The notes under the pieces are model-generated. The model saw only the letters and a program-made list of their open reading frames with translations. It did no database searches and was not told the DNA's origin. This document shows, one piece after another, positions 5,436 to 59,412 of a stretch of 64,000 bases of DNA (the stretch's first letter is position 1; each line of letters begins with the position of its first letter). Origin of the DNA: Ginglymostoma cirratum (taxonomy: Eukaryota); contig JAHRHZ010000070.1 of the NCBI GenBank assembly GCA_024137785.1, positions 12,964,570-13,028,569 of the forward strand, read 5' to 3'. Made by a program: the position numbers and the translations under genes.

Positions 5436-5464
5436 CTTGGCTCATTCTAGTCATCCTTGTAGCA
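5436..5464 (-). CDS. kcnma1: kcnma1 29-nt micro-exon (N)ATRMTRMSQ leading to the DEC-type C-terminus
   Basis: ttttctctaaag|T GCT ACA AGG ATG ACT AGA ATG AGC CAA G|gtatga; in phase with the donor at 6678; matches mammalian NATRMTRMGQ. Confidence 0.93.
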
Positions 5465-24716: not shown

Positions 24717-25077
24717 GGTGGCAATATGACAGAGTGGTTAGCACTGCTGCCTCACTGTGCCAGGGACACCCCAGGTTCGATTCTAGCCTTAGGTGACTGC
24801 CTGTGTGGAGTTTGCATGCTCTCCACATATCTGCTTGGGATTCCTCTAGGTTCTCTGGTTTCCTCCTACAGTGCAAAGATGTGCAGGTTAGGTGGACTGT
24901 CCATGCTAAATTGCCCGTACTGTCCAGGGACGTGCAGGCTAGGTGGGTTAGCCATGGTAAAAACACTATGATGTGGAGGTGCTGGGTTTGGGTGGGATGT
25001 TGTCCAGAGGGTTGGTGCAGACTCGATGGGCCGAATAGCCTCCTTCTGCACTGTGGGGATTCTGTGATTCTATGATT
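24717..25077 (+). mobile_element. HE1-type V-SINE
   Basis: Same structure; ends gattctgtgattctatgatt. Confidence 0.92.
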
Positions 25078-27140
25078 TGCAGGAAACCCCTCCAGTCAAA
25101 ACCTCCCTCCTGCTCACGCAGCTATGTAGATGGTCTGCCTTGTGTCATAGAGGACTCCACTCGACCTCTTTTAATGTCACTCAAGCATTACGTTCTGCAC
25201 AACACTACTGCTGACTTGGCTTTTTTCTATCGATTCATTGCCCTTTCCGTCTCCTCCCAGCCGCACAATATTGACTTCTTTGTATATATAACATTGCAAA
25301 GCTTCAGGGAATGAAATCTCCAAGAGCCAACAGTAAGGTGAGAAATAAATTGAACTTTTCACAGTCATCACTCCTAGTGAATCTTAAGAACCAAATCTTT
25401 GGGACAAGTGGGCTAATCTCAATAACCTGGCATTTAGTCTTCCTCAATGCACGAAACATTTATACCACAGGACTGTTTCACCAACAAGAGGAAGACAACT
25501 ACAGCTGTTGGCAGAGATGAAAGATGGCTGGCAACAGATGGTTGTATCTCTGTCACACTTGCCAGCTGTCCACAGAACGTCACCTTATATGAAGATAGTT
25601 GGCAACAAACATTAAAAAAAAACTGAAAAATGTAAAAAAGGAGAACATTTCTATGCTTCCTTCTGAATAGTGGGGAAGCCACAAACAATACAGATCCCAC
25701 GGAAAATATCGAATTGGTGATGACAGCCATCTTTAACAGCCCCTACCATAAGAGCCAGGAATCATGTGGAATGGCCTATAATCAATAGGAGCCCCCATAG
25801 TCAGAAATGTTGGAACAATTGAAACACAGCTGTATTTTCTACTATTAGAGGAGCAAAGAAAAAAAGAGCTGATTTTACTTTGGGAACACGCAGCAGGATA
25901 TTGAGTGCCCTCTGCTCAGCCAGTAAAAACAATGAGCAGCTCCAGGGATCATGTGATTGTAAGTGAATTACAGACCCACAGCTCTTAGTGAAGCAAGCTC
26001 AGCATTAACATGTGACAGCTATCTACGATTTGACAATGCTGTCAGCCGAGATGATAGATGAGAGTTGTCTGCTAATCATCAACACCTTTGTTCAATGTGA
26101 AATGTTGCTTGAATGATGTTTTGTTCTAACTGTTTTTCAAAACCAAGCAAGAGCCCAAATTGAGACATTAAATCAGCATAGTGTTTCAATGCCCAGAAAT
26201 ACCTCCTCGCTGCTGGCATTTTTTGGACCATGTCAGCCAACAAAATGTATATTACTCCAGTGTGGTAGCACGCTGGAGCCCACACAGCTTTCAAGGATCG
26301 TTACTTGGGTGGCTCAGTGCTGCAGTGACCTTGTTAAATCATCTAATGTGCACAGTACAGCTCTATTTGATGGCAGTATATGTGAAAAGTGTGTTGACAG
26401 AAACTTCACTTGGCTGATACTGCAGCAAGTCAGATTGTCTGATCAATCTGACAGACTCATTTATAAACTTTTGCCTATTAGTGCAACTTGGATTCAACTT
26501 AAATTTGCATCTGGTGCCAGCACTGGATTTATGGATTCTCTATTTTTGTTGTTGTTGTATGGTACATTACACCATATTTCTTTCAGAGGCAGACTCAATT
26601 GTTGTAGAAAACGCATCAGAAACAATGCAGCATTTTTTTCAAAGAAAACCAGTTCTTTAAAGCACAAAAAGCCAAGTTCAATATTTCATGCTCAAGTTCA
26701 CAAATTAACGATCGCTCTGCATTTTGCTTTAAAATTCACAGGAATTTGCAGTTCCTGTGCTCGTACACTGTATAAACTAGAGATTGCTCTAATGCCAGAA
26801 TAATGGGGCTATACTTCACAAATTGTCAGTTGCATTTACATCCATGTCAAATGGAAATGAAACCATGCCTGTTCTACTTAGTAGAAAGTTCCAAACATCC
26901 TTGATCTGAAGGTGCAGCAAATACTGAAGAGTGAAGGAAGATCCCATCCACTATAGCTAGTTTCTTACTGTTCATATACAGCTTTACAATCCCAACCATC
27001 TCCTTCTCTTGCCCGACTCAGGGTAGCTCATGGTTTCTCTCACTACACACTATCCCATCCTACTGCTAATTAAGCAACATTAACAGTTTGCAATTACATA
27101 GCACCTTTAACCTAAGGTTTAGGAAAGCAACCCTAGAACA

Positions 27141-27237
27141 TTTCTGAAGAAGGGTCCAGACGTGAAATGTCAGCTTTCCTGCTCCTCTGATGCTGCCTGG
27201 CCTGCTGTGTTCCTCCAGCTCCACACCTTGTTACCTC
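27141..27237 (+). mobile_element. 97-nt Penelope terminal-repeat unit with degenerate hammerhead
   Basis: tttctgaagaagggtccagacgtgaaatgtcagctttcctgctcctctgatgctgcc...ttgttacctc. Confidence 0.82.
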
Positions 27238-27649
27238 AAACTTACAGCCTTGGCCACCAACGATGCACTAATATTAATCAGAGATACTCGGGGCCAGAAT
27301 TAAAGGAACACAGGATGTGGGCAAGGAGGAGTTTACAGAGATAGGGAAAAGTGAAGTATTGGAGGGATCTGAAAACAGATATGAATACTTTAAAACGGAA
27401 ACATTTGTAATCAGGAGTTAATGTAGAGGGAGCACAAGAACAATGGGTTAACAGGGCTCTGATTAAGAAGAAATGTTTTAGATGATATGGATGTGCTGTT
27501 GGGCTATAGTGACTTGAAACAGATTCTGGACTGTTAATTAAATGAAACTTGCATCTCCTTTCTAACAGAGTTTTCCACACCTGGCTTCTGCAATTTCTAG
27601 AATGCAGGAATGTATGAATGATTAAAGATTCAACAGGAGACAGTCAGCC

Positions 27650-27831
27650 AGCCATCTTAGGTTTGTTCACTCCACTCACACCAATTGTATGATGCTTTGA
27701 TCTTTCTGCCCATAAACTCAGTGTCTGTGTGCTCACCTCTCATTGCACCTGACGAAGGGGCTGTGCTCTGAAAGCTTGTGATTTCAAATAAACTTGTTAG
27801 ACTATAACCTGGTGCCGTGTGATTTCTGACT
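27650..27831 (+). mobile_element. Second-family Penelope terminal fragment with hammerhead-like core
   Basis: cacCTGACGAaggggctgtgctctGAAAGCTTgtg with palindromic AAGCTT stem III; stem I cac/gtg. Confidence 0.7.
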
Positions 27832-29522
27832 TAGATGATATGCAGTTTATGAAGAGTAGAATGTGGTAGGCCAGTCAGGAATTCATGGGAATAGTAATTT
27901 AGATGTTTCATCAGCATCTGGGCTCAGGCAATGACAGTCATGGGATGCTTTGGTGATGGTGCAAATATACGGCTCAAAACTCAACACAGAGGCAAGTATT
28001 TCACCAAGACTGAGGACAGTCTGATTGACCCAACAGACCGTTGATGGAGAATCTCAACAAAGGTTCTCTTTAGTATTGCATATTATGCTTACCTTATATT
28101 CACCTTAGGGTGCTCACTGACTACTATCCCTCTAACTCTCTATTTCCTATCAAGTCATTCTTTAAGAGCTTCCTCAACCTTCAAGCTTTTGTTTAGCTGT
28201 CCTGATATCTCTGTATCTGATTCAGTGTTAAATTTTGTCTGAAAATACTCCTGTGAGGCACCTTGAGATATTTTTAAAGGCACTATATAAATGCAAGCTG
28301 TTACTCTTGTTGAGCATTCATGTGTTTGCTAGAATAGCCTGAAATGGCTGCTGAATGAAATATTTAATGTTCAATAAACTCAGGCCTTGTCCTGACAAAT
28401 TGAGAGGATGGCTGTCAAAGGTGACTCTTCCAGCCATTACATTTCAGCTGCATTGGAGCACTTAGCTAACCGAGTTCCATTATTTCTGAAATCCATTCAG
28501 TAAGAATCACTGGCTGACTTAACTGTTGTGCACTCTTATTATTTTGAAGAGATGCTTTGAAAGCTTTTGATCGTTTTCAAAGTAAACCCAGCTTTCTACA
28601 CTTGGCGCTTTATTTTGAGAAAACAAGAGCAGCCCTTAAAGCTGTAGGTTTTGTTACAATCAAGGGCCTCAAAGGATCAATCCTGCAGTATATTTCTCAC
28701 AGTTCAACACCACCATAAAACTTTACACTTCAATACTTTTACTACAAATTGTGTTAAACTAACAGGCCAGTTACACTCTGCAATTTGCATCAATTGTGAA
28801 GCAGCTTTGGCTTCAAGCTGACGTGAACTGCAAACTTCAACACTGGAACAAAGTTGTCCAAATTGGACTGAGACCAGCAGTGTGCTTGGGCCTTGAGGTA
28901 GTGTGCTTTCCCACTGTTTCAGTGTCCAGCAGCTGCACTATAATGTGGTTAGTACGAAGGGAATTCTAAACATATCCCTAATGGTTGGACTGACTGCTGG
29001 GGAACTTCTTAAAAAAAACTTTATTTCCACCTTTTAATGCAAGCAACTATCCCGTTGGCTCTTAGTTACCATTAAAATTTAACTGGTGTTTGAATGCCTG
29101 TAAGCAGAGCTCAAGTGCTTCAGCTCTTCTGGCTAAGGAACAGTGTGGATTCAGCTGCACAACTTGCATTGCTGATCCCTTAACACTTTGACCAGGTAAT
29201 TAACTCAGACTGCTATCTGTAATATCACGCTGCACCCAAAAGTCCAACACCATTGCTTTTTTAAATCTGAATGAGAAGGACCAGCTCTTTAAAAATCTGC
29301 TTCTTAATTAATTGAAGGGATGCCTTCATTTCACATACAATTCTAATGTTGTTACTTGCATTTTACTTTGGCCACGTTGAGCCACAGCAGCAGACTTATT
29401 AAAACACACAGCATGTGAGATCTTCAAATGCCCAAAGGCTTGACCAAACCCTGCTAAGCTTTGGGTTTTAAAAGACCAACGGATCTGTCAATGAGTGATT
29501 TACAGTGAAGGGTCTATTTTTA

Positions 29523-29795
<273 letters not shown>

Positions 29796-30315
29796 TCAAT
29801 AGGTTATAAGGCATAACGGAAGTTATTGAACAGTCAACATTAGCTTTAAGAAACCGGAAATTGTTACGTATTAAGATTTTGCTTTAACTTATTACATATT
29901 TCAGTGCAAAGTGCAAAGCATAGCAAGCAAGTAGAAGTTATTATTTCTTTTACAACCCCTGAACTCTGTCTTCAGAGCAAATCTAGCAAAAATAAACAGT
30001 TTGAAAGAAGGTTTGATCTGAAGTCTTGTTTTGATTTTTTTCCCCCTCTATTCAGGCTTTCTGCGAGAGCTGTGGAAAGAACTGTCAATCAACATGACAG
30101 AGGTTGATGAATAGGCTGAAGCTGCAGAAATGAACTGCAAGCAAAATACTATGGAAACAGCTGCAAGGACAGAACAGTGAGGTCAAAGAGCAAGAGATAT
30201 TCTGTGAAAATAATAATCGTTAAAAATAAATTAGAAGGACACAACTAAGGCAGCCAACCTCAATCATAGCCAGCAAAAGAAAGACACTAACACTGGAGAA
30301 ATCTCTCTCAGCCAA

Positions 30316-30352
30316 ATGAAAAGAAGTAGTGATGAGTGAAGTGAAACTGTGG
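30316..30352 (-). promoter_or_regulatory. YCAY cluster (putative NOVA-binding intronic splicing enhancer) downstream of the Ca27-type exon
   Basis: Minus strand reads ccacagtttcacttcactcatcactacttcttttcat: six YCAY tetramers 25-60 nt after the donor. Confidence 0.6.
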
Positions 30353-30376
30353 ACAAAGGAGAAAGGGGCTGCTTAC

Positions 30377-30460
30377 CCAACTCAGTTATCATTGGTATGT
30401 TGGCTCCAATGTTTTTTTCCTGACTGAATGAAACCAAAGGGAGCAATTTGCCAGGTTTAA
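30377..30460 (-). CDS. kcnma1: kcnma1 alternative Ca27-type exon (V)KPGKLLPLVSFSQEKNIGANIPMITEL, 84 nt (28 codons), phase 1-1
   Basis: Resembles the mammalian Ca27 insert AKPGKLPLVSVNQEKNSGTHILMITEL. Polypyrimidine tract ending tcattattag, donor G|gtaagc; frame-preserving; lies just before the Ca-bowl exon. Confidence 0.93.
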
Positions 30461-33400
30461 CTAATAATGAATGAGAAATTGGTAAACAGGAGAGTACAAA
30501 GGCACAAAAAAAAACATACAGGTAATAATTTCAAAGAGCACCAAAATACAGAACCAAGTTCATTAAATATTTACTATCACAAGAAACAGTTTCTAAGCAA
30601 AGAATAGCTTTTCATTAAGTAGATATCAAAGACAACAGGATTGAGCATACATTAAAAAAGCAGTAAAAATCTTTGTTTGAACATCTTTAAGAACCACTAT
30701 ATATCTTTGCTAGCCACATGGGAAGGTTTGTTTTTGACATATTCTTCCAATTTTCTCTAGTCCTTTCTTGAAGGTACCGAATCACAAATCAATAGCACTG
30801 CCCATCTTGCCACACTTCATCCACATGGTACTTAATTTTTGAGGCCAGTGGGTAAAGCAGGTTGCTCATTTAAGGGATATCACAGCCAAATTTGACATGG
30901 TTTATGTCAATGTAAAGACTTGACTATTCAAAGGAAACATACTGGAGAACGAACAGAAGCAGCGATACTGGCTGACAATTTCCCTTCCTAGTTTTCTCAG
31001 CTGAAATCAACAGATGCCACAGATGGGAATGTGGTGCAAGATCTTTATACTGTAGGTGGTAGAACTACCTGGATGAATTTTCCCCTGTTAACCACCTTCC
31101 CCACCCCCTCCCCCTGCCTCCCCCAACTCAGAAAATACAATACTTTTAAAGAAAACGCTTGTTGTCCTTGAAAGAAAAACTTCAAAGAAGTTATTATTAT
31201 GAAAATTACCATTGTCAGTTAGTTTCTGTCAGCAGAAATCACACATCATACATGTATAAACAACCCCTGCCAAAATGCGCAATATTTAATAGTCAGGTGC
31301 TCAGTGACTTGCTTTGCTACTGAGAATACAGATTGTGTGTGTCAGTTTGTGTGAACTTGAGAAAAATACCAAGGATGCATTCACACAGTGTGAATATTTT
31401 AGATGGGAGTGTGCTATTTATTGTCCACACAATATTGACAGCTAAGGGCTCATGTTGGAGAATGATTAAGTAATGGTGGCCTCATCACAGGAAAACATGC
31501 ACAACTAAGGACATTCATCTCTGTTTACCAAAGGAGACTTCGTGTCTGGACAAAGTAGCACTTGGCTCAAATGCCCGACTAGTAATTAATTTTATTTTCT
31601 CACTTCAGGTGCCTCCTGGCTAGAATTCAGTATGGAACAGGATGCCACCTGAAATGTATTAATGCCTGTGGCCACAACCAGTGAACGGATCTCTGATGAG
31701 ACACTGAAGTTCTCCCTTAAACAAACATTTTGGAAAACCTCTCCAACAATAGAGATGGAATCTATTTATGTGATGACAATAGAATGGAAGGGACAGTACA
31801 ATATTCTATTTGTAAGTCAAAAACAAAATAATAATTGACAGCTACTTCATATGTATGTGTATGATTCAGATATAATGGCACATTTAATTCAATGACCACG
31901 TCTTTACTCATTAGAAAATTCAAAATCCCTCTTTCTCTTCACGTTCAACAGGTTGCTTTCTTCAAAACTCCTTCATTGGGGATGAAATATTAAATCAGTG
32001 AACATAGTCTTGAGTGAACATGCACTCCCATTACTCCGACTTGAAAATATTTTGTCAAATATCCAGTTGTCAGCTGTGGGAGAAGAGTTGCTCTGAGGCC
32101 CTCATTGCTTTAGTATATGCACTAACTAGATAGTGCATTCATAAAGCACCCACATGCAGCAGTGATCTGAGATGAAAAACTAGCTTCCATTGTAGCATTA
32201 TCAAACCAGGTGAGAAACCTTTTGTAGCTCACCCAAGTGTGACAACAGCAATTTGATGTCATTTAATATCTCTGCAATTTTTGCAAGATGACAGGACCCA
32301 AGACACCAACTCTATCATGTAAAGCAGAGATGAATATGCAAGTGCTGAAGCAAAGAGTGCATAGATTTTGTATTAGGTTGTTTCGACACAAACAATTACA
32401 GAGAATATATACAGAAGTTTTAGAATTATGGCAAAACTGCTAAATTTACACAGCATTGTGATATTAGTACGTTAGAGAAAAGGGTACTGCATGCTACATG
32501 TGTATTGTAATATACCCACATTGGACATGTGGTCAGGTCATCAATACATTACAAATGATCTGGACTGTAGATACAAAGAACAATAAATCAGCTAGAAAGA
32601 AAAGCACAAGGGGAAAGTTCACATTGATAAAGATCGAAATGGACACTTTTGCTTTGCCGCAGCCAGTCTCTTAGAGGGTGGACATGAAAATACCTGTATT
32701 ATAAAAAGGGACACTGTTAATTCTAACATATACATAGGATCCAAGTTTTGATTAGTAAGAGATTGATTTTGCTTATGGAAACTGAGGTTCATTGGTAAAT
32801 TCATAGAAATGTCTCGGCAATGGCATGTTAACTTCTCAAGTCAACTCCAGGATGGCATGTGAATCTAAAATCAGATGGGAGGTTAACATGCTAGTCAGAA
32901 GTTGTTTTCCCTGGAGCCTAAAGATTAACCAGTCTGTCTCTGTTACGTTGGAAGTCAAAAGGCTATAAAAAACCACAGATGACTGTAAAGAAAATTAGTT
33001 CTGGATCAAGACTGTAGAACAGAACGCAAATGAATTATTATGTTAAAGTCAAGTAAAATGGCTCACAAAAGTCAGACAGCATTGTGAATTAATTATTTTA
33101 ATATATCATTAGACAAAGCTAAGTTGAATCTGATTTTAACATGCTACTACGTATGTTTACCACACTGTGACAAAAAGGAACTTAATGATTCAAGCAAAGC
33201 TATGTTTCAGCTTGTTTGCCTTGGACTTCCTTTAGCGAAACCGATGAAACATACATGCAAAATAGAACGGTTCCAAACCAATGAACATAGGTGTTTAATT
33301 GTTATCTTGCAGATTAGGGCACAAGTGAAAACAGGGCAGTGCAAATCAAATCTCTGTTGCAAATATCTAACTCCTGATTCATGTCTTTTTGGTATTTAAC

Positions 33401-33534
33401 TTTCAATTTTAGGAATAAAAGCTGAAAAGTTAAAAAAATGCAATAAGTGCAACTAAAGCATTAGAAATGGTGCTTGAACAGGTTAGACACATTTGTATAA
33501 CTGAATTAAGCTAGAAGAGATTGTTTTGGGATTT

Positions 33535-34345
33535 TATATTCATTCAGGAGGTGTGGATTTCATTGCCTGGACCAACGTTTATAGCCCAACTCTACGAGAA
33601 AGTGGTGGTGAGCTGCCTTCTTGAACCATTGAAGTCCATTTGGTGTGTATGTAGCTACAATGTTGGTATGGAGAGAATTCCAGGGTTTTGACCCAGTGAA
33701 ACTGAAGGAGCAGCAATACACTTCCAAGTGAGAAAAGTGAGTGGCTTGGAGAGGAACTTGTAGATAGTCTTCCCATGCATCTGTAGTCCCTGTCCTAAAT
33801 GATAGTAGTCGTGGGTTTGGAAGTTGGTGTCTAAGAAGCCTTGGTGAATTTCAGCAGTGCATCTTATAGATGGTCCATACTGCTACGACTGAATGTTGGT
33901 GATCGAGAGTGTGGATATTTTTGGATGTGGTGCTAATCAGGTGGGTTGTTTTGTCTTAGATGGTGTCAAATGTCATGAATGCTGTTGAAGCTGCACTCAC
34001 CCATGCAGGTGAAGAGTATTCCAACACATTCTTGACTTTTGCCTTGTAGACAGTGAACAAGCTTTGGCAAATCAGGAGGTGAGTTATTTACTGCAGGATT
34101 CCTTTGACCTGCTGTTGTAGCCATAGTATTTATATGGCTAGTCCAGTTCAGTTTTTGATCAATGGTAACCCCAAGGGGGTCAATAATGGGGGATTCAGAA
34201 ATGGTAATGCCATTGAATGTCAAAGGGTAGTGGTTAGATTCTCTCTTATTGGACATGGTCATTGCCAGGCACTTGCATAGCATGACTGTTACTTGCCGTT
34301 TGTCAGCCCAAACCTGGATATTATCCAGGTCTTGCTGCATGTGTT
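33535..34345 (-). mobile_element. 3' fragment of the same CR1-group family as 51056-54253
   Basis: ORF 33966-34379 (MQQDLDNIQVWADK..ITISESPIIDPLGVTIDQKLNWTSHI) is homologous to 53440-53650; shares the 3' tail. Confidence 0.9.
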
Positions 34346-37300
34346 GTGAAGATTTGATGTGCATCTCACAATTCTGCACCTGAGCTTGTTATCAAGTGGG
34401 TTTGAATAGAAAAAAAGTGAAGTCATGAGCTACGTTCAATTTTAAAATGATTTTGCTAAAGATTGTACTATACAGTTCAAGTATTCAAAAGACTGAGGGG
34501 GACTGGTTAGTTCAATTGGCCAGATGGCTACAGTATGGTTCAGGATAATGCCAACAGCACAAGCTCAATTCCCATTCGAACTGAGGTAGACTTGGAACCT
34601 ATCTTTGCTCCAGCCCCATGCTTGACATGATGCCCCTCAAACTATGCAACCAACTGTTTCCCTTCATTAGAGATGCCTACAGTCCCTCATGACCTGTGGC
34701 TTATTATCTACCTACATGGCTTCAGTAAGGGGAATTGAATCAACTATTGATTCAGCTAAGAGTGGAAAAATGCATATTCAGGTCCGAAAATGACACAGGA
34801 GTTATCAGTCACATATAGTCCCAAAATAAAGCTAGGGGAATTGGCTGAGCACATGTTCATCTAGTTTCTACATTTCTAAGTGGTTACTATATAGACTGAC
34901 AAAATCAAGTTGCCACGGCAGATAAACACCACCATATGAAGCTTTGTCAGGGCTATTGAATAAAACTGTTTTCGCTAAACCTGCTGCATTACAATAAAAG
35001 TAAAGTTCACTCTTTGTTTTGTACTTCATATATTATATACAAATAATACATTTATGGTCATTAAAATAATTAAGAAGAAAAAGCTGCAAGATCTTTTAGA
35101 TATTATTCATTAATTAAAAGCATATTTCATGTACTTCCCAATATTCTGAGAATTTGTCTGAAAAATAATATAGATAACGTTTTCCAGGGATTATAAATTA
35201 AGCGTCTCTACACCAAGAATTACCTTCCCCCAGTCCTTCGATATATATTGTCTACTGTTGCCTTTCATGTTGTTTCTTAATTAGGTTCAAGCAACCCTTC
35301 ATCTTAACTTGATTTTCAATCTCTAATTTTTTTAATGACATTTGTGAGAGGCAGCTGCACTGGAACTGAAAGTGCTTCACTTTCAACATCAAGTGCTGCT
35401 AGGTCACATGGAGCACAGGTAATGAGTTAACAGGATATAAAACTCCCTCTCGTTCAACTAACAATAGGAGCTGACTGCCTCTGTGCACTAGTTACAGTAA
35501 AAATCATAAACTTTTTCATGACTTCATTGGATTATTGTGAGGAGAGAATCTCTCCGAACTTTTGAGAAAAATTGTATCATTTGGATAGGTACATGTATAG
35601 GAAAGGTTTGGAGGGATACAGGCCAGGAGCAGGTAGGTGGGACTAGTTTGCTTTGGAATTATGTTCCATATGGATTGGTTGGACTGAAGGATCTGTTTCT
35701 GTGCTGTGTAACTGCATGACTGTGTCAAGGCACGATTTCTTCTTGTTGATCTAACTATTTCCATTGGGCTGGCTGTTGTAGGCATTTAAGAAATTAGAAC
35801 ATAGAACAGTACAGGCCCTTCAGCCCATGATGTTGTGCTGACCTATTATCCTACTAAGGTCAATCTACCCTACCCTGCATATTTTACGATCCTCCATGTG
35901 CCTATCCAAGAGTCACTTATAAGTCTCTAAAGTATCTGACTCCATGATCACTGCCGGCAGTGTATTCCACACGCCCACCACTCTCTGTTTGAAGAACCTA
36001 CATCTTGACATCACCCCTATACCTTCCTCCAATTACCTTAAAATTTATTTCACTTTCATCCTCTTGCTCACAATAGGGTGAGGCTCTCATCTTGGCAAAC
36101 TTTGATCTAGAGGTGACTATTAGTCCAAAATGTATTCTGTGCCCTGTGAGTTGAATCTTTGTCAACTAGTTTCATGCTGGAAACTGCTAAAGGTTAATTA
36201 AGGATGAATTCCCCCAGGATGGTCTAATCTCTCATGGGGATGCTGCTACTCACCTAGAAGCAGCTTCTCAGTGAGGCGGCTTGGGTCATTGCAATCTGAG
36301 ATCACACCAACAGAAAATGCCGCACTGACAGTGCCTGCTGCTGGGAGGCATTACACCTCCGAATCATTGAGGTGTGCCCGCCTGGCACCAGCAGTCAAAA
36401 TTATCTTCTATCTCCTCTGGGAGCGCACTAATAAATGAACGTGTCCTCTTATTACCCTTGCAACCTGAGCAGCAGCCAAATCCCTCTGCTGACCCATTGA
36501 TTGGGCTGGCAATGAGACCAGCAAGCCCATCATTCTTTACTGAAGCAGCCAATCAAGAATACAGCACCACGAAGATTGCTGTCATGGCCCCACTGCCTGC
36601 CTGAATGGGCTTAAAAACCTCATTTGGTCCTGATTTGGGGATGAACCCTGCTTGGAAAATCTCTGTTTAGATCTCTATTCCCCTAACCAGTCACAAGTCA
36701 GAAAGAAATACAGTGAATGATAAAGAAGGAAATCAGGTGAGTTAGATATCAGATCAAATTAGATAAAGGAAGTGAAATAAAGAGACCAAAAAAAAAGTTG
36801 GATCGAGAAAGATAAAGGAGAAAGACTTAACATTTAAAATACCTCTAACAACAATTTCCAACCTGTCAGAGTGAGACTGCAGAGTTTCACTTGCTCCCTT
36901 TGTGGGAATCCATGGCTGAGTCAGGACAACAAATGCCCTAATAATAGTCCTTATGCTCTGAAATAGCAGCCCTAACTATCTGCAGAAAATTTAATTTGTA
37001 TATATGGTGCAATGTGTTGTTGACTAGCTCCCATTTTGTGAGGCTAATGGCTTAAATTGCTCAGCATTTTGTGGCAATTTGCAATTCATTGCGTATCTCT
37101 TCTTGCCTCAAATTGCTGGCTTATTTACATACTATTAACTGCATGTGCCTTACTTTCCCAGGAAAATCTGGGTCAAAGCTATTCACTATGTTGCCCAGGC
37201 AACTTTGCTCATTAATGCAAAGACTCCAGAAACTATTGTACCTTTAAAAGAAAGTCAAAAGGTTGCTGTATGTTTTCATCATGATAACCAGGTCCCACAC

Positions 37301-38934
37301 AAAAAAGGAAGAAGGATTATTACAATTATTGAAGATTTCATGTGACATGTTTAATATATCCTGTTCAGAGCCTTTATCATAACTAACTACAATTATATCC
37401 TAGTGAACTTGCAGTAATCATGTCACAGTGGTTAACCTCTAGTGCAAATACTGACATAAATGACTGCACTTCAAAAAGTAGTTCATTGTGTGAGACACTT
37501 CATAGATATTTTAATGTGGGAAGGTTTTAAATGTGAGTCTTATTCCTATAGTGTGGAAATTAATCAAGGATATGAAGCAGATTGCCAGCACCAGCACTGA
37601 AATAAAAAGAACAGTATAGAGGGAAAATATTCTGAATTTCTACTTGACTATGTACAACTTCAACACAATTTATTACAAAATAACAATATAAAGTTAACAA
37701 TCTGTTTGTAAGTGGTTAAATCAGCTAACACGAGCAATATTAATTAGATTTAGCTAAACGTGCTGGTTAAGTGTTGCTTCCTGCACACATTTTTCTCTCA
37801 AAACAAACGAAATAAACATACCATAAATATCCAGACCTACTTATATGAGCATGGCCTATTTATTCAAGGATTGCAGATGGTTGTTGGAGGGAACTTTTAC
37901 TTAGGACAGATATGGCATTAAAGGTTTCATATCAGTCCAGCTACCTCTTCCAATTTCTCTTCCCGATGACTTCAATGGAAGAGATTCTGGAGAGATTTAC
38001 AATGAATGATCAATTCACTATTACTCATTTTGCACTACCATTGTAAGTTAAAATGAGACCTGTTAATTAGGAAATAAGATAACAAAGGACTTGGAATATC
38101 TTGAAGACCAAGGAAGAGAAATAAATTCAAAGCAAGACAGCACTTTTCTCAAGCTTGTGTCAATCGGAGAAATTATTGGGCAGAAAAGTTATATCTAGCC
38201 CATCAACATGGTCATTTTATGCATAACTTGTTTTATATTTTATGAGGAATTCATGAAAGAAAACCTGTAATTTGTTACAATCAGAGCACAGTTTTATGCT
38301 TGTGATGCGAAAGTTACACAAATTTGATCTCATTGCACTTGAATGTTCATTAGTCTTTTTCAGCAGACTGAAGAGGTACGCATCGTGACACAGGGTGGAT
38401 TACTGATTTCAATTCAGATGTCAAGACGCTTTATTGTTTTGGTCCTTGGATTTCATCTTACGACAAATCATTAGGCAGTAAAGATCAACCTCAGACTGTA
38501 GAAGTTAAAAGATTCAAAGGACTGGTAAATTAAACCTGAGAAACTGTGTGATGCAGGCCCAACATTTGTAATATTGCCTTATTGCAAATATCAATTTGGC
38601 AGTAATTTCACAAAAATAGTTTTTTCCAAAGGCATTTCTTACTCATGCAGGACACTATTTACATACTTTGAGGCCAAACTCATCCTTTGCAACACTGGGG
38701 ACAGATAGAACCTGGGTACACAGTGACACTTTGCGTACCAACAGTCTATGCACAGCTTGATGTAGCCATACATAAAGGTGCCTTTTCCCTCTTATTCAGA
38801 GTTTGTACATGGTGTCAACGTGCCCATGGCCCATCTTTGACCTCCAGATGAAGTGCAAGATGGCTCAGGTGACTGACATAATTGATAATTTCTAAATCAC
38901 AACATCAGGCATAACACATTTCCATAGCACAAAT

Positions 38935-39255
38935 ATAATGATAACATTTCCTACTGACCTACATTTTACCATCATTAAGGTATGAAAGGAAGTAGCTAAA
39001 GTGATAGTGAATGCACTAGCGGTAATCTTCCAAAAATCCTTAGATATGTCCTAGGGGACTGCAAACTACCAATGTAACACCTTTATTTTAAAAGGGAAGC
39101 AAATAGAAAATAGGCAACTATAAGCCAGTTAGATCAGCTGCCTGTTGATGGAAAAATGATAAGAGTCTATCACAAAGATGTAAGAGCATGAGCCAACATG
39201 GCTTCATGAATGGGAACTTGTGCCTGACAAATTTACTAGAATTCTTTGAGGAATT
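38935..39255 (+). mobile_element. CR1 RT fragment
   Basis: Degenerate KEVA..IV.AL.VIFQ.SL, NVTPLFK, NYKPV, QHGFM and CLTNLLEFFEE coding sequence. Confidence 0.75.
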
Positions 39256-39289
39256 CGAATTTAAACTTAGAATTCTTAGGCCATTCAGC

Positions 39290-40985
39290 CATTCGAGTCT
39301 GCTCCACCACTCGATGAGATCATAGCTGATCTGATAATCCTCAATTCCACTTTTCTGCCTTTTCCTCTTGATTCTCTTGATCCCCTGACTGATTAAAACC
39401 TGTCCATATTGGCCTTGAATATACTTAATGATTCAGCCTTGAAAGCCATAAGACTTAGGAGCAGAATTAGACCATTCAACCCACTGAGTTTGCTCTGCCG
39501 TTCAATCATGGCTGATATGCTTCTCAACCTCATTCTCCTGACTTCTTCCAGAACCCTTGATCCCTTTGACTAATTAAGCCTATTTATCAGTGTCTTAAAT
39601 ATACTCAATGACATGGCCTGTACAGCCTTCTGAGGCAATGAGTTCCACAGATTAACCACCTTCTGGCTGAAAAATTTCTCCTCATCTCAGTTCTAAAGAG
39701 TCATCCCTTCACTGTGGCTATACTTTTGGGTCCTAGTCCCTCTTACTACTGGAAACATCTTCTGCACATCCATTTTCTCCAGGCCTCTCAGCATTCTGCC
39801 AGTTTCAATGAAAGCCACACTCCCTACCGCCTCATCCTTCCAAACTCCATTGAATACAGACCCAGAGTTCTCAGTCATTGCTTATTTGACAAGCCCTTCA
39901 TCCCCGGGATCATTCTTGCCAACCTCCTCTGGACCCCTCCAATGTCAGCACATTCTTCCTTAGATGCAGGGCCCAAAACTGCTCACAACATTCCAAATGC
40001 AGTCTGACAACAGCCTTATACAGCCTCAGTGCTACATCATTGCTCTTGTATTCTGACCTTCTTGAAGTGAATACTAACATTGCATTTGCCTTCCTAACTG
40101 CCAAAAGAACCTACATGTTAATCTTAAGAGAACTAGGAGTCCCAAGGTTTCTGAAACCTTTCCCTGTTTAGAAAATAGTCTCCACTTCTATTTTTCCTAC
40201 GAAAGTGCATAACTTCACACTTTCCCACATTGTATTCCATCAGCCATTTCTTTGCCCACTCTCCTAGCCTGTCCATGTCCTTTTGCAGCCTTCCCACTTC
40301 CTCAGGACTACTTGTCCCTCCAACTATTTTTGTTTCATCTGCAAACTCTGCAAATATTCCCTCAGTTCCTTTGATTGTTATTTATAACACGTGGTTCTAA
40401 CACTGAACCCTGCGGAACTCCGCTAGGCACCAGCTGCCACCTGAAAAAGACCCCTTTATCCCAACTCTCTGTCTTCTGCCAGTCAGCCAATCCTCTATCC
40501 ATGCCAGTACACTGCTCCTAACACCATGGGCTCTTACCTTATTTAGCATCTCTTGTGTGGCACTGATCTTCTGGCACACCACTAGTTACAAGTTGACAGC
40601 CTGAAAATTTCCAACTCTTTACCGTCTATTAGTTAGCCAATCCTCTATCCATGCTAATATATTACCTCCAATACCAAGGGCTCTTATCTTATTAATTTGC
40701 CAAATGCGTGATACCTTATAAACAGGTTCTGAAAATCCAAATATATAACATCCAATGCTTCAGCTATCTTCCTAGTTACCTCCTCAAAAGATTCTAATAA
40801 ATTTCTCAGGCATGATTTCCCCTTTATGAATCCACACTGACTTGGCTTGATCATAATATACATTTCTAAAATAGACTCTAACATCTTCCCATCAACAGAC
40901 ATTAAGCTAACTAGCCTATAGCTCCTCGTTTTAGTCTCCTTCTCTTTTTATACAAAGGTATTACATTGGCAGTTTACAATCCTGT
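39290..40985 (-). mobile_element. CR1 (HER1-like) LINE remnants: RT region and nested 3' ends
   Basis: Translations SQCGFIKGKSCLRNLLESFEEVT..DVIYLDFQ, AHGVRSSVLAWIEDWLTGRRQRVGIKGSFS and RLYKAVVRLHLECCEQFW. Confidence 0.9.
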
Positions 40986-40999
40986 GGGAAAGAAAAAGC

Positions 41000-41210
41000 C
41001 AAGGAACTGATGATGCTGAAAGTTAAAAAAAAAAACAACAAAAAAAAAATTGCTATAAAGACTCAGCAGCATCTGTAGAGAGGAAGCAGAACTAACATTT
41101 CAGGTCCCATGAACCCTCCTTCAAAACGGGGCCCAAAAAGTTAACTGCTTTCTCTCTATAGATACTGCCAGACTTCAGAGTTTCCCAGCAACATCTGTTT
41201 TTGTTTCCAA
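41000..41210. mobile_element. Inverted Penelope terminal-repeat insertion within a CR1 remnant
   Basis: gcagcatctgtagagaggaagcagaactaacatttc... followed by inverted gttaactgctttctctctatagatactgccagac. Confidence 0.65.
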
Positions 41211-42269
41211 TCCTCTGGGGCTTTTCCAGAAACCTGAGCATTTGTGGAAGAGTACTACCAGTGCATCCACTATCTTTGGCAACGAGGGCCATTGTAATAC
41301 TTGCAAGCAAGTTACAGATGTTGTAATAACACTGATCGACGTTAGAAAGATGACCGATTATAGGTTCAATAAAATCCTATTTAAATATACAATACTATTG
41401 ATACTAGGATGACAATTGGTCAGCACTGCTCAAGTTTCCAACTTGATTTGCAAAAGGTAAATGCATGACAGAGAATCGAATCTTAATGACTAAGGATTGT
41501 TTCGAAGTCTGAGTTGAATTTGCTGATTTTGCCTGGGGTGGACATAACTGTACATAATATCTCCGAGTTCGGGGAAAACAGATAGAAGCAAGAGTTGAAC
41601 TTAGAACCCCTAGGCCTGAATGACTGGGTTCGCTGCATCTTCAATAACATTCTAACATATATGGATTTCCTTCAGAAGTGAACAGTCATCTTTCAACCTT
41701 TGATCAGTCCGGCTGCAACAATCTGTATATAAACATTACAGCAGATACCCTTGAGCATAATGAATCTGAATTCTGTCCATATCATTGAACAATTAGCTAC
41801 AGTAATAGACAGTGGGAATGTCAGCCATTGACCAACAAGTCTGTACTGCAGGCCCCAAGGCTGCAGTCTTGTATTTCTTACATTTGGCCCAAGATTTTAA
41901 AGCTTCCAGCTCCTGTCTTAACCAGAATAGCACTGTCTAACACATTTTAATGAAATCATTGCTCTTAGGTTCGTGGAAACATCCTCATATCAAGCATTAA
42001 GAATATTGAGATGTAAACGGTAAGCCTACTTTTACAACACATGATGTTACATTAGCAAGTTTTGTTGTGAGGTAAAACTGAACATTATTTTTGGGAAATT
42101 GGAATGCCAGAATTTTAAAAGTTGTGCTCTTATGAATGCCACATCTCAAAATTTCACTGTATTATCTCAAGTCATTTTTTGATCAGGTAAAAGCAAACAT
42201 TAAAGATAGACCTTTTTAAGTATTAACAGCTTTCTTTCAAATCATTCACAAAATGTTGATACTATTGTA

Positions 42270-42760
42270 TACAATAAGGCCGGAACTTATTGCCCATTCC
42301 TAAATTCTGATGAAGGGTCTAGGCCCGAAACGTCAAGCTTTCCTGCTCCTATGATGCTGCTTGGCCTGCTGTGTTCATCCAGCTCCACACTTTGTTATCT
42401 CAGCCCTTAAGAAGCTGTTGGTTAACCGTACTGTAAATCTGCGGCAGTTCATGGAGAGAAAGTACATTCACATGTAATGTAAGGAGCTCCAGAATATCGA
42501 CCGAGCATTGATAAAGGAATGGCAATATATTCCCAAGTCAAAAGATGCGCGACTTGGAGACAAGGCAGTTGTTATTATATTCCCATGGGCCTGGTTGTCC
42601 CTATCCTAGGTGGCAAAAGTAACAGATTTGGAAATTGCTGTCAAAGGAACCTTAGTGAATTGTTGCAATGTATCTGGAAAATAGTATGCCCCGTCGCCAG
42701 ATTGTACTACTGGTGGAAGGAGTGAAATGTTTAAGATAGTGGATGTAGCACCAATTATCT
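42270..42760 (-). mobile_element. Degenerate 3' end of the same CR1-group family, interrupted by the 97-nt hammerhead unit
   Basis: ttattgcccattcctaa, cccttaagaagctgttggt and cttggagacaag match the reverse complement of 53870-54240. Confidence 0.65.
42305..42401 (+). mobile_element. 97-nt Penelope terminal-repeat unit with intact hammerhead core (42307-42334)
   Basis: ttCTGATGAagggtctaggcccGAAACGTCaag...ttgttatctc; closely matches the terminus of the 54.5-kb element. Confidence 0.88.
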
Positions 42761-43016
42761 ATAGACAGAGTATGTGTGTGGCTTTTCTGGTATATTTCCC
42801 TTCAGCAGCATTAAAGTTTGCAAATACCAGCTACAAAAGCAGTCATTAAGCATGAAACTTAATCTTAAATGCTTTACTTGAGGGGACTGTTGGTGGATTG
42901 TGACAAATGGCAAATATGTCAAGTGATTGATATGTCAGTATGACTAATACTCACCCCGTTCATGATTAATGGATTGACAAAAACACAGCCAAGAGGAGGA
43001 AATTTGATCATCTTAC

Positions 43017-43130
43017 CTAATTCAGTCATCATTGGGATGTTGGCCCCAGTCGTGACAGACGTTTGTCGGACTAGGCCATGGACTGGACTATTGTCAGGAG
43101 AAGGTCTGTCCATTCCTGGAGGTGTGAATC
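43017..43130 (-). CDS. kcnma1: kcnma1 (BK/Slo1 alpha) RCK2 exon [38 protein letters not shown], 114 nt, phase 1-1
   Basis: Translation matches the vertebrate KCNMA1 segment [38 protein letters not shown]. Acceptor cactggccag and donor G|gtaaga on the minus strand. Confidence 0.97.
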
Positions 43131-46100
43131 CTGGCCAGTGAAGAAATAGTTCAGTCAGAAAATCACAAAACCTCCCTTTGATAAACTTAACTGCCTTATT
43201 GAGAAAAAGAAAATCTAGATGCATTCTTACACAAGTAAGTGATCCACCCAACCAATTTCCTGATAACACAGAGATTTACCTGCACTAAGAGCAATGGACC
43301 TTGAGTCATACAAGTTTGACTATATAGCAATGATGAAAATTCTAATTTTTTTTCTGCTACAAAACCATAATTGAATAACACGTGTACGTTAGCACAGTTG
43401 TCAGAATGTTACTTTATTTGCGTAGCATCTCCAAAAAGAAAATTAAGGAACAGAAAAGTGTTACAACAAGCTCTCATTTTAAAACTCTCTGATGTGCCAC
43501 ATTTTACATTGTAATATGGGTTGCTGATAAATACACACAAACCCTCTGAGTTGATAGAGTCCCATCACTGAAACATAATATTTGTATGCTCCCGAAGGGA
43601 GTATTATGGTGAAGGGCTACAGTACAAAGGAAGCTGTCAACATCTTAAGTTCAGAGAAATGGAATATGCTTTAAAGTCAAACAACCTCCCCTCAGCGTCA
43701 CCTCCCTTCCCCCAAAATTGTTAAGAATTCAAATCGAAGTGGGAATCTTAACTGATTAGACACCCCTCAATTTGGGAACATGTGCAGCACAGGAAAAATG
43801 AACTCCTGTAGCTTCTTTTAAACCAAGTTCCCCCCAACCAACCCTCTCCTTTTTAATGTTGGTAGATCCAGAACTCATGTAACCTTTTATTCCAAATTTA
43901 TTTTTGGTTTGTTACATTAATGTTTCACCAAACAGACAAGCCCACTAGCAGCAACCTGAAATAATTTCATCAATAAAAGTCACTTGATACTTATTTAGTA
44001 TTTACAGCTTCCCATCATGTTGCTGATATTAATATTACATGTTCTCCATTTGGGTTAAACATAGTGAACATAAAACCCTTTTTATCAGAAATGTTAACGT
44101 TCAGAGACCTAAAAAAAATCCCCACAAACATGCCATTTCTTTGAAGTCATGGAACTTGACATTTTTCATTTTCCATGTTGACAAGTCAACACCTAAAGCC
44201 AGTAATGCTGTATACATAATACATAGACTTCAGGTTTTTTGAGAGGGCTTCAGGCCATTAGTTAATGCTGACACAATAAAACCCAAGCTGCTGGCTTTTG
44301 AACTGTTTTCTTTAAAAAAAATCTCTAAGTTTTAAAGAAATCACATTCTTTCAATTGTTTTAAATAACACTATCTGAAATGTCCTTTTCAAATGGAAATC
44401 CTCCCCAAATATTAACTACATATTTGATGTTTCCAAAAAGATTTGACTTAAATAAAGAATGGTATTCAACAGAATGCTGAGAAAGAAGCTTTTTTAAAGG
44501 TCGGGTTCAGTTAAGTCGATCAAGTTGTTATATTTATTCAAGACTTTGTCTTTTTAAATAACTTATGTTAACAGTTGTTGTTGAAAGGTATCTGTAATGT
44601 ATCTTTCAGGATTATAAATAACAAAAAAAGCAACAACCTTTACTGTTGCCATGTAAATTTGTTAGCTGCTGTTTTGTTCTTTAGCATGTTGAAAAGCTCA
44701 AATCATACAAATTGCCTGTAACTACAGAAAAATAAAACACAAAGGAAGAGTGAGTGAATGAGGAGATCAAAATACCTGGAAACAAAACAATTTAAATCAC
44801 TAAACCAGAACAAAATGAAATGTGATTTTAAAAATAAATCAAAAAGGTTTAGCAGATTGATTTCTATTATCTTTCACCCCACTGTCTTATTTCATGCAAT
44901 TGTTCTGTATACAATTCCTTTCCTGTCTCAATAAAAATGAAGTAACTTTGCATTCTGAATGCTGACAGATTCGTTTTAATAAACAAAGGTATCTCAAAGT
45001 CTCCAAAAAAACCAAGACTTAATGAAAAAAAGCACTAATTATTACATAGTCCTTCTGCATTCAAACCAATATTTCAAAGTCTATTTTTTGTGCCATTAGA
45101 ATAATTCATACAATTTCCATACAGATGGCACATATATTTGTGGGGTTGAAGAGTATCACAGCATATAGGAGTTCTTTTATTATTGTACTTGAGGAAAGTC
45201 GAACCATTTATTGCTTTTAACACTTTAGCCCACAGAGAATTCCTGCAGAAAAGGCTGTCTTATTCTATGTATTTCACCACTCAGACAAAACAACTCCCAT
45301 GTTGTTTGAGACTCTTAGTTACTGTAGTTGTGCATGAGAGCTAATATGGAAATAATAAAAAAGGAACCTGACAGTGGTCCTCTGTAGTATTGGTGACAGA
45401 CATCCCAAAGTATCTAAGGATACTTCTGTGGAGGACACAGATCAAAACACCAACCGGCATATTTTAAGATGTTAATCATTTTGCAATATCCAGCAGATAG
45501 TGAACAAAAACAAGTGTTGAATAGAGGAACAATCAGTGATCATGATAAATAAAATTCAGTGACTATATTAAATACTTTTTAATATCACATTAGTATCTCC
45601 TGCAACATAAATTATGTAAATTTCACACCAAAGCTTATGTGAAAATTATGCAGATTATAACTTGATTAGGCTTTTATCATGAGACCCAATTTGGCTTTTT
45701 TATCTATTAAGCTTCAATAAATGAGGCATCTGAATAGCTCCCTTGAGCAACTGCAGTAATAACTACACCAGCAGTTATTTCAGCTTTTGATGTCAAAGTA
45801 ATTTGACGTTAGCAGAGAGAGTGGGGATGGAGGAGAATGGAATGATGGTTGGGGATGGGGAGAAGAGGGCAGGGTAAAGATTGTTCATCTTAATGTATAA
45901 GTATATACTTTAGGTACTATAATCCAAAGTGATTTTGAAAAATCAAGAACATGGAAGATGGTGACAGCACACCCAAGCTATCCCAGAACATACATAAAGT
46001 AATTGCAAAATGATGCTGATTTAAGTACAGGAGTTGAAATATGGCCGAGAAATGTGCTGCCAGAATGGACTATCAAATGGCAATGTAGTCGCTATTCAGT

Positions 46101-48291: not shown

Positions 48292-48472
48292 CATGAGATA
48301 GTAGGAACTGCCGATGCTGGAGTCAAAGATAACAAGGTGTGGAGCCGGATGAACACAGCAGACCAGGCAGCATCAGAGGAGCAGGAAAGCTGACATTCTG
48401 AAACGTCAGCTTTCCTGCTCCTCTGATGCTGCCTGGCCTGCTGCATTCGTCCAGTTCCACACCTTGTTATCT
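48292..48472. mobile_element. Fold-back Penelope terminal-repeat mini-insertion
   Basis: Inverted arms of about 70 nt. Direct repeat ATCTTAGCATGGCAA at 48277-48291 and 48469-48483. Confidence 0.87.
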
Positions 48473-50069: not shown

Positions 50070-50166
50070 GAGATAACAAGCATGGGGCTGGATGAACACA
50101 GCAGGTCAAGCAGCATCATAGGAGCAGGAAAACTCGACGTTTCGGGCCTAAACCCTTCATCAGAAA
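50070..50166 (-). mobile_element. 97-nt Penelope terminal-repeat unit with hammerhead core
   Basis: Nearly identical to 54566-54662; flanked by the direct repeat AGAAAGTA (50062-50069 and 50162-50169, partly overlapping the element end). Confidence 0.88.
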
Positions 50167-54000: not shown

Positions 54001-54253
54001 TATATAGGAACACCACCACCTTCAAGTTCCCCTGTGAGCCACTCACCATCCTGACTTGGAAATATATCATTGTTGCTTCAGTGTCGCTGGGTCAAAATCC
54101 TGGAATTCCCTCCCTAATGGCATCGTGGGCCAACCCACAGCAGGTGGACTGTAGCAGTTCAAGAAGGCAGCTCACCACCACCTTCTTGAGGGCAACTAGG
54201 GATGGGCAATAAATGCTGGCCAGCCAGCAACGCCCACATCCCACAACTGAATA
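51056..54253 (+). mobile_element. Near full-length CR1/L2-group non-LTR retrotransposon (AP endonuclease + RT, disrupted) with a tRNA-like 5' head and no ORF1
   Basis: EN motifs PDIVILTESYL, GYVLSHRQDR..RGG, GDFNVHH, LDL, SDHRIV. RT motifs KATGPDNI, WKIAQVCPVHKK, YHPISLLS, QFGF, VPQGSVLSP, FINDY. B-box GGTTCAAATCC at 51123-51133. Several frameshifts and stops. Confidence 0.92.
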
Positions 54254-54627
54254 GGGATCAAAAGCGAACATTTGTTACTCATCCTTACTGTCTTTGAGTG
54301 ACTTGTTAGGCCATTTCAGAAAGGATTTCAGAGTCAACCAGATTGCTTTGAGTCTGTAGTCACACGTAAGACAGATTTCCTTCTCGAAAAGGCATCAGTG
54401 ATTTTTAAGACAACCATGGAAAACTTTACATTCGTCATTATTCGGACTAGCTTTCAATTCTAAATAGAGCTTATTAATTAGAGTTTCATCAGCTGCCATG
54501 GTGGAATTTAGAGATATGTTTGCAAAGCATTAGAGATAAAAGGTACTGCAGATGCTGGAGAATCCGAGATGACAAGCATGGGGCTGGATGAACACAGCAG
54601 GTCAAGCAGCATCATAGGAGCAGGAAA

Positions 54628-54663
54628 ACTTGACGTTTCGGGCCTAGACCCTTCATCAGAAAT
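54628..54663 (-). ncRNA. Minimal type I hammerhead ribozyme motif in the Penelope terminal repeat
   Basis: uuuCUGAUGAa-GGGUcuagGCCC-GAAAC-GUC-aag: catalytic core, stem II and palindromic ACGU stem III, as known for PLE hammerheads. Confidence 0.8.
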
Positions 54664-54931
54664 GGGGGAGGGGAAGAGGGTTCTGAAATAAATAGGGAGA
54701 GAGGGGGAGGCGGATAGAGGATGGATAGAGGAGAGGATAGGTGGAGAGGAGGCAGACAAGTCGAAGAGGCGGGGATGGAGCCAGTAAAGGTGAGTGTCGG
54801 TAGGGAGGTAGGGAGGAGATAGGTCAGTCCAGGGAGGACGGACAGGTCAAGGGGGCGGGATGATGTTAGTAGGTAGGAGATGGGGGTGGGGCTTGAGGTG
54901 GGAGGAGGGGATAGGTGAGAGGAAAAACAGG

Positions 54932-59236: not shown

Positions 59237-59412
59237 CATAGATAGCAAGAATTGCAGATGCTGGAGTCAGAGGCAACACAGTGTGGAGTTGGAGGAACAC
59301 AGCAGGCCAGGCAGCATCAGAGGAGCAGGAAAATTCTAAAGAAGAGTCCCGACCCAAAACATCAACTTCCCTGCTCCTTTGATACTGCCTGGCCTGCTGT
59401 GTTCCTCCAGCT
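59237..59412. mobile_element. Fold-back Penelope terminal-repeat mini-insertion
   Basis: Inverted arms ggaggaacacagcaggccaggcagcatcagaggagcagg / cctgctcctttgatactgcctggcctgctgtgttcctcc. Direct repeat CAGCTAATGA at 59227-59236 and 59408-59417. Confidence 0.85.

What the first reader, a model, noticed from the sequence alone, without database searches (positions are those of the whole stretch)
30377..43130. Ca27-type exon is a near duplicate of the preceding exon's 3' end and could replace it
Seen: the last 32 nt of the two exons are 27/32 identical, with all five differences at third codon positions ([10 protein letters not shown] vs GANIPMITEL). Both exons are phase 1-1 and end in G|gtaag. 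The mammalian pair (GVNIPIITEL / GTHILMITEL, from memory) is more diverged. Inference: Ca27 arose by exon duplication, and in sharks selection keeps the RCK2 strand next to the calcium bowl interchangeable. Mutually exclusive use would give a channel 10 aa shorter that lacks the RQTS site (equivalent to the mammalian RQPS PKA site). This is relevant because BK channels tune elasmobranch electroreceptors.
Basis: partly seen in the sequence, partly recalled or inferred. Interest (0 to 1): 0.7.

Follow-up and report, generated by a model that had tools for sequence, protein, structure and literature searches.

The report
BK channel exon swaps a strand
A known optional exon of the BK potassium-channel gene ends in a near copy of the previous exon's last ten codons; in the shark and ray protein records examined it is always added to that exon, never used instead of it, and its copy is predicted to take over the core protein strand beside the calcium sensor.

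Summary
On the minus strand, KCNMA1 exon A (43017-43130) and the Ca27-type exon B (30377-30460, 28 codons) share 27 of their last 32 nt, and both are phase 1-1. The likeness stops at those 32 nt.

Replacement by splicing is not supported in sharks. Of 61 shark and ray models, 45 are A+B, 16 A-only, 0 B-only. The pair lacks the features of the gene's real mutually exclusive pair. B is the known Nova-type cassette (Slo27/SS4, skate exon 29). The likeness is not shark-specific: shark B keeps the ancestral invertebrate motif, and a catfish pair is also 9/10.

The copied ten residues are the only ordered part of exon A in human structures. An AlphaFold2 model of the A+B protein puts B's copy in the RCK2 sheet and A's copy in a disordered loop. 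In an electric knifefish, two diverged kcnma1-like models show A's strand decayed with B intact, and A absent with B alone. Best reading: additive splicing, substitution in the folded protein. No RNA covering these exons was available.

The parts
43017..43130 (-). KCNMA1 exon A (114 nt, phase 1-1), the constitutive exon before the site; equals human residues 845-882 in the cryo-EM constructs
43057..43068 (-). RQTS codons in exon A; the serine aligns with human S869, a reported phosphorylation site; kept in A+B channels
   Evidence: position; alignment; residue number counted from it; S869, second-hand
43017..43048 (-). last 32 nt of exon A: first copy of the RCK2 strand ([10 protein letters not shown])
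30461..43016 (-). intron between A and B, 12,556 nt, GT-AG, rich in high-copy repeats
30377..30460 (-). exon B, the Ca27/Slo27/SS4-type cassette exon (84 nt, 28 codons, phase 1-1)
30377..30408 (-). last 32 nt of exon B: second copy of the strand (GANIPMITEL), predicted to sit in the sheet when B is included
30316..30352 (-). six YCAY motifs within 37 nt, 24-60 nt past the exon B donor; likely Nova splicing enhancer (inferred)
29622..29752 (-). calcium-bowl exon C (131 nt), 624 nt after exon B

Best explanation
Exon B is the known Ca27-type cassette exon of KCNMA1, likely born by an old duplication of exon A; in the records examined it is spliced in addition to A, likely under Nova control, and its ten-residue tail is predicted to take A's place as the RCK2 core strand next to the calcium bowl, which would push A's copy into the already disordered loop. 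Shown: exon anatomy, frame compatibility, additive use in annotated proteins, strict conservation of B's tail. Inferred: duplication, Nova control in this species, the strand swap. Including B would therefore do two things: swap a few side chains of one core strand and lengthen a flexible loop by 28 residues. The RQTS site stays. This explains why B's tail must stay strand-like, and why a large insert at a strand-helix junction is reported to have modest effects on gating.
For: (1) Additive use: of 414 vertebrate-type records whose linker could be cut out, 322 are A+B, 91 A-only and 1 B-only. Of 61 shark and ray models from 15 species, 45 are A+B, 16 A-only, 0 B-only. (2) Human residues 834-870 are unresolved by cryo-EM and exon A is 845-882, so the copied tail is the only ordered part of A. 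(3) AlphaFold2 model of the shark A+B region (399 aa, mean pLDDT 80.9): strand at 221-225 in B's copy, block pLDDT 90, running into helix 228-233; A's copy (190-197) lies in the segment 172-214 with pLDDT under 50. The model matches human Slo1 at rmsd 1.4-1.7 A among the top ten hits. (4) In 22 distinct 28-residue B variants the Gly, both Ile and Thr-Glu-Leu are invariant. (5) In distant family members the loop before the strand varies freely, while the strand nearly always runs straight into the calcium-bowl helix motif. (6) Natural experiment in Brachyhypopomus gauderio: P0231 keeps A+B with A's strand broken and B's intact; P0242 has B alone. (7) A Slo3-like paralog in this genome has one copy of the strand with the same phase-1 intron. 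(8) YCAY cluster after B: 2 of 5000 shuffles reach six. The exon after A is a brain-enriched Nova target in mouse, with the same pattern in chicken and zebrafish.
Against: The model depends on the alignment: MAFFT put the last four residues of single-copy homologs under B and the first four under A, and AlphaFold2 has seen strand and helix contiguous in training. One good model, no controls. No solved structure contains exon B (0 hits). The isoform counts come from automated, non-independent gene models, and only 120 hits were listed from each of three searches (of 148, 1436 and 7989). The knifefish models are partial (465 and 405 aa), fast-evolving, and could not be checked against their genome. 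The proline of the motif is invariant in A but varies in B (Pro 14, Gln 5, Leu 3 of 22), which may mean B's tail is less constrained. Four six-motif YCAY clusters occur in the 64 kb strand, and the cluster was noticed after the fact. One paper reports that this exon right-shifts activation voltage, so its effect is not always slight.
Confidence: 0.68

Rival explanations
1. One reading: sharks make a sizeable, regulated B-only mRNA in which B replaces A, giving a channel 10 residues shorter without RQTS.
For: It is in frame. A knifefish paralog model shows B alone can follow the upstream exon. Inverted repeat arms flank exon A and could favour skipping. The rat RT-PCR across this site primes inside exon A and would be blind to B-only (primer table, compared by eye with exon A).
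Against: 0 of 45 B-bearing shark and ray models lack A; 1 of 323 B-bearing records overall, and that one is a diverged paralog. Nothing forces exclusivity: both exons are multiples of three and 12,556 nt apart, unlike the gene's real pair of two 92-nt exons 85 nt apart. Exon A has the better donor (7/9 against 6/9 consensus matches). The flanking arms are high-copy repeats and none touches a splice site.
Confidence: 0.08
2. Additive splicing, but A's copy stays in the sheet and B loops out between strand and helix, or the two copies exchange dynamically, which would tune gating kinetics.
For: A's tail stays invariant in species that include B, although A-only isoforms explain that. B's proline varies. 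The model shows one bridge residue at 196 in A's copy. The insert is reported to speed activation in a calcium-dependent way (second-hand).
Against: The model is confident in B's strand. The strand-helix junction is nearly always contiguous across the family. In P0231 it is A's copy that decayed.
Confidence: 0.17
3. The high likeness in sharks comes from recent gene conversion or shark-specific selection for identity between the two tails.
For: Most sharks and rays are 9/10, above birds (6-7/10) and mammals (6/10). The likeness ends sharply at 32 nt.
Against: Four of eight degenerate third positions differ, which argues against recent conversion. Shark B is 9/10 to the invertebrate motif and shark A 8/10. 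A catfish pair is also 9/10; Heptranchias and Hemitrygon are 8/10. The sharp edge coincides with the edge of ordered structure.
Confidence: 0.07

Closest known systems
KCNMA1 Ca27 / Slo27 / SS4 / site-3 'calcium-bowl' exon (mouse exon 24a; skate exon 29; sawfish exon 21)
   Same: Same position directly before the calcium-bowl exon and clear sequence homology to the rat insert. Described as a cassette insert. Present in adult skate ampullary cDNA and sawfish rostral skin (that exon 29 is B is inferred from its position).
   Different: 28 residues rather than 27. Tail nearly ancestral. The candidate Nova cluster lies in the intron after B, whereas the mouse cluster is inside exon A. None of the passages I read describes the exon as a duplicate or proposes a strand swap.
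Tandem duplicated exon substitution (mutually exclusive homologous exons), e.g. the two 92-nt exons after S6 in this same gene
   Same: Two neighbouring homologous exons, same phase, old and under purifying selection; one homologous segment ends up substituting for the other.
   Different: Homology covers only 32 nt. Lengths differ (114 and 84 nt). The intron is 12.6 kb, double inclusion is in frame and is the recorded form. The true pair is equal in length, 85 nt apart and frameshifting if both are used. Here the substitution is predicted to occur in the folded protein.
Nova-regulated neuronal cassette exons with a downstream intronic YCAY enhancer
   Same: Dense YCAY cluster just past the donor; the orthologous exon is a Nova target with brain-enriched inclusion.
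   Different: Binding and tissue pattern were not tested in this species; conservation of the cluster in other sharks could not be checked.

Membership tests
KCNMA1 Ca27/Slo27 cassette exon | lies directly before the calcium-bowl exon, after the constitutive exon A | tested here: met
KCNMA1 Ca27/Slo27 cassette exon | homologous to the 27-28 residue insert of other vertebrates | tested here: met
   100% to other sharks, 83-90% to bony fish and frogs; rat insert as printed
KCNMA1 Ca27/Slo27 cassette exon | included or skipped while exon A stays | tested here: met
   in relatives' annotated models only: 45 A+B, 16 A-only of 61
KCNMA1 Ca27/Slo27 cassette exon | spliced into mRNA in this species | tested here: inconclusive
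   the two possible RNA runs gave no cover of the exons
Mutually exclusive tandem duplicated exons | the two exons are homologous | tested here: met
   only over the last 32 nt
Mutually exclusive tandem duplicated exons | same phase at both ends | tested here: met
Mutually exclusive tandem duplicated exons | the two exons are not used together | tested here: not met
   322 of 323 B-bearing records carry A as well
Mutually exclusive tandem duplicated exons | a mechanism that enforces exclusivity (very short intron, frameshift on double use, U2/U12 mismatch, competing RNA pairing) | tested here: not met
   12,556-nt GT-AG intron, both exons in frame; no inverted pair touches the splice sites among the 25 of 33 pairs listed, pairs under 25 nt not sought
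Nova-enhanced cassette exon | YCAY cluster just downstream of the exon | tested here: met
   six motifs in 37 nt; 2 of 5000 shuffles
Nova-enhanced cassette exon | Nova binding and neuron-enriched inclusion in this species | not testable with these tools
   no CLIP or tissue RNA for this species; shown for mouse, chicken and zebrafish orthologs

The most novel reading that the evidence does not exclude
The Ca27 exon is a duplicated-strand cassette: adding it in the mRNA swaps a core beta-strand of the BK calcium sensor in the protein, in all jawed vertebrates. Once B is always included, A's copy becomes dispensable. An electric knifefish has likely taken that path to the end, with one kcnma1 duplicate in which A's strand decayed and another in which B has fully replaced exon A.
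Probability: 0.5. Interest if true: 0.55.

Novelty: new variant of a known kind. Interest (0 to 1): 0.4.

Why it matters
The exon has been studied since 2000 as a plain insert, and no solved BK structure contains it. If its tail replaces a core strand, residue-level readings of Ca27-containing channels change. That includes a human reference isoform used for patient variants, which carries this exon: variants in A's tail would be masked in neurons that include B, and variants in B's tail would hit the core. It also gives a route by which an additive cassette can turn into a true exon replacement.

Tried and rejected
RNA test: the run search listed no holder on record as RNA. The two guessed-RNA runs laid on 25001-45000 had zero depth in the bins holding exon B and most of exon A and showed only repeat-derived joints; this is no evidence either way.

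First AlphaFold2 job (full length, 30 close homologs) failed at mean pLDDT 27 and was discarded.

Seven apparent B-only proteins were a pattern error; they carry exon A. The '308 of 308' tally missed diverged B exons, including the two knifefish models, and is superseded.

P0236, an unnamed protein with a 28-residue linker, was rejected as B-derived (1620 of 20000 shuffles score as high).

The slow tree did not finish. The FastTree run groups the two knifefish copies on a long branch near the root and does not resolve their origin. Their link to otophysan kcnma1b rests on the exon B sequence alone.

No solved structure matched exon B. Earlier findings of this scan: none.

No lamprey or hagfish record turned up among the named hits, so the duplication is dated only to before the shark/bony-vertebrate split and, if it was not lost in the paralog, after the Slo1/Slo3 split.
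Full report
WHAT IS THERE. The window holds the 3' part of KCNMA1 (BK channel alpha subunit) on the minus strand. Exon A (43017-43130, 114 nt) matches human residues 845-882. Exon B (30377-30460, 84 nt) is 100% identical in protein to the Ca27-type exon of several sharks and rays. The calcium-bowl exon C is 29622-29752. The exon upstream of A lies about 35 kb away, outside the window, and ends in phase 1. Exon A's peptide is identical to models from Chiloscyllium, Hemiscyllium and Stegostoma, so the source is likely a carpet-shark relative.

THE OBSERVATION. The last 32 nt of A and B are 27/32 identical; the next best match in the window is 20/32. All five differences are at third positions, four of them synonymous. 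Four of eight degenerate third positions differ, as expected for an old split under purifying selection rather than recent copying. Upstream of the 32 nt, and in the introns after the donors, nothing beyond chance remains. A-only, A+B and B-only are all in frame.

IS B USED INSTEAD OF A? I could not count junctions. No run on record as RNA was listed, and the two guessed-RNA runs do not cover the exons. I used annotated proteins instead: 526 in all, from three searches that each listed 120 hits (of 148, 1436 and 7989) and three cluster look-ups. Two of the searches were seeded with exon B, so B-only forms had the same chance to rank as A+B forms. In 414 vertebrate-type records the linker could be cut out; the other 112 were invertebrate, fragmentary or unmatched and were not counted. 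Result: 322 A+B, 91 A-only, 1 B-only. Among 61 shark and ray models from 15 species: 45, 16, 0. These are automated, non-independent models and can miss rare isoforms. The same gene offers a control. Its real mutually exclusive pair is two 92-nt exons, homologous throughout, 85 nt apart and frameshifting if both are used. A and B are unequal, 12,556 nt apart and in frame together. The papers I read treat the exon as an insert, but the rat assay primes inside exon A and could not have seen B-only.

IS THE LIKENESS SHARK-SPECIFIC? Mostly not. Identity of the last ten residues of A and B is 9/10 in most sharks and rays, 8/10 in Heptranchias and Hemitrygon, 9/10 in a catfish, 8/10 in frogs and reedfish, 7/10 in most carp-like fish, 6-7/10 in birds and 6/10 in mammals. 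The commonest invertebrate motif is GANVPMITEL. Shark B matches it at 9/10 and shark A at 8/10. A Slo3-like paralog on contig C3 has a single copy ending at the same phase-1 intron (the Slo3 label is my inference). B therefore likely arose on the KCNMA1 branch before sharks and bony vertebrates split.

WHY THE TAIL IS KEPT. In the human cryo-EM structure residues 834-870 are unresolved. Exon A is 845-882, so only its last twelve residues are ordered, and the copied ten lie within them. Across distant Slo proteins the loop before this strand varies widely, while the strand nearly always runs straight into the calcium-bowl helix motif. An insert at that junction is tolerable if it ends in its own copy of the strand. 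In 22 distinct B variants the Gly, both Ile and Thr-Glu-Leu never change; the Pro does. An AlphaFold2 model of the shark A+B region (residues 719-1117 of P0133, 128-row alignment, mean pLDDT 80.9) places a strand at B's copy (221-225, block pLDDT 90) followed by the helix, with A's copy inside a segment under pLDDT 50. The model superposes on human Slo1 at 1.4-1.7 A in the top ten hits. The caveat matters: the alignment put the second half of the single-copy strand under B and the first half under A, so this is a feasible, favoured model and not an independent proof. No solved structure contains exon B.

A NATURAL EXPERIMENT. P0231 keeps A and B, but A's strand is interrupted and altered while B's is intact. 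P0242 goes from the upstream exon straight into a 28-residue segment and then the calcium bowl. The first 18 residues of both segments, which exclude the shared strand, match the exon B of characiform and catfish kcnma1b-type genes at 10/18 (0 of 20000 shuffles reach either score) and do not match exon A. This is the decay pattern the strand swap predicts, and it shows B can stand alone at least in a gene model. Both models are partial, about 77-79% identical to the nearest teleost copies outside the linker, and unverified against genome or RNA.

REGULATION. Six YCAY motifs lie 24-60 nt past B's donor. Two of 5000 dinucleotide shuffles of the first 100 intron bases reach six, but four such clusters occur on this strand of the window. 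Jelen et al. (PMC2014790; passages and supplement file 2, part 2) list the exon after A as a Nova target more included in brain in mouse, chicken and zebrafish, with the mouse cluster inside exon A. Shark exon A has only three scattered YCAY. Nova control here is inferred.

ELECTRORECEPTION. [quoted passage not shown] The latter paper states that rays use BK and sharks Shaker-type channels in electroreceptors, citing Bellono 2018, which I did not read.

WHAT IS IN PRINT. The exon is known. Reported effects are faster calcium-dependent activation with little steady-state change, or a right shift in one study (PMC3840924 and PMC4055454, passages; Ha 2000 and Tian 2001 seen only as cited). PMC9741552 lists KCNMA1 among genes with duplicated-exon substitution without naming the exon in the passages and supplement parts I saw. 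I also read passages of PMC3393747, PMC10018040, PMC4191425, PMC10486799 and PMC11309989. Ten searches, seen as listings, gave no paper that calls this exon a duplicate of A, proposes a strand swap, or mentions the knifefish copies. The library lacks most subscription papers, including King 2016 and, from recall, a review by Fodor and Aldrich on BK splice sites, where the point may have been made. bioRxiv supplements were closed, and figure alignments such as the sawfish Figure S6 could not be seen.

VERDICT. Replacement by splicing in sharks is unlikely (about 0.08 as a sizeable isoform; trace amounts are not excluded). Additive splicing with a predicted strand swap is the best account (0.68). 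The exon is known, the mechanism appears unreported in what I could search, and interest is 0.4.

Noticed in passing
proteins P0231 (XP_076855994.1) and P0242 (XP_076855999.1), Brachyhypopomus gauderio: Two fast-evolving kcnma1-like models in an electric knifefish: one with exon A's strand decayed and exon B intact, one with exon B and no exon A. Possibly a lineage-specific BK duplication.
   Followed up: partly
L004 (G000:C70:13175100-13175900), minus strand: The gene's true mutually exclusive pair: two homologous 92-nt exons 85 nt apart after S6, the site linked to low conductance in skate BK.
   Followed up: partly
L003:3898-3928 (G000:C3): A Slo3-like paralog carries one copy of the strand followed by a phase-1 donor, about 1.1 kb before its calcium-bowl exon.
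   Followed up: partly
window 57298-58014: Nested inverted arms (89-91% complementary) form a roughly 700-nt foldback in the intron upstream of exon A.
   Followed up: no
window 42293-42401 with 48327-48391, 50078-50165, 54574-54673, 59270-59332; and 33597-34308 with 53462-54186: High-copy repeats in inverted orientation on both sides of exon A; could favour skipping or back-splicing of A, but such pairs are common in long introns.
   Followed up: no
window 5437-5466, minus strand: Short alternative C-terminal exon matching the Scyliorhinus model P0006; the preceding exon can also run on into its intron to a stop.
   Followed up: no
exon A of Amblyraja radiata and Leucoraja erinacea models: The RQTS motif reads RPTS in these skates, so the putative phosphorylation site already varies within elasmobranchs.
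   Followed up: no
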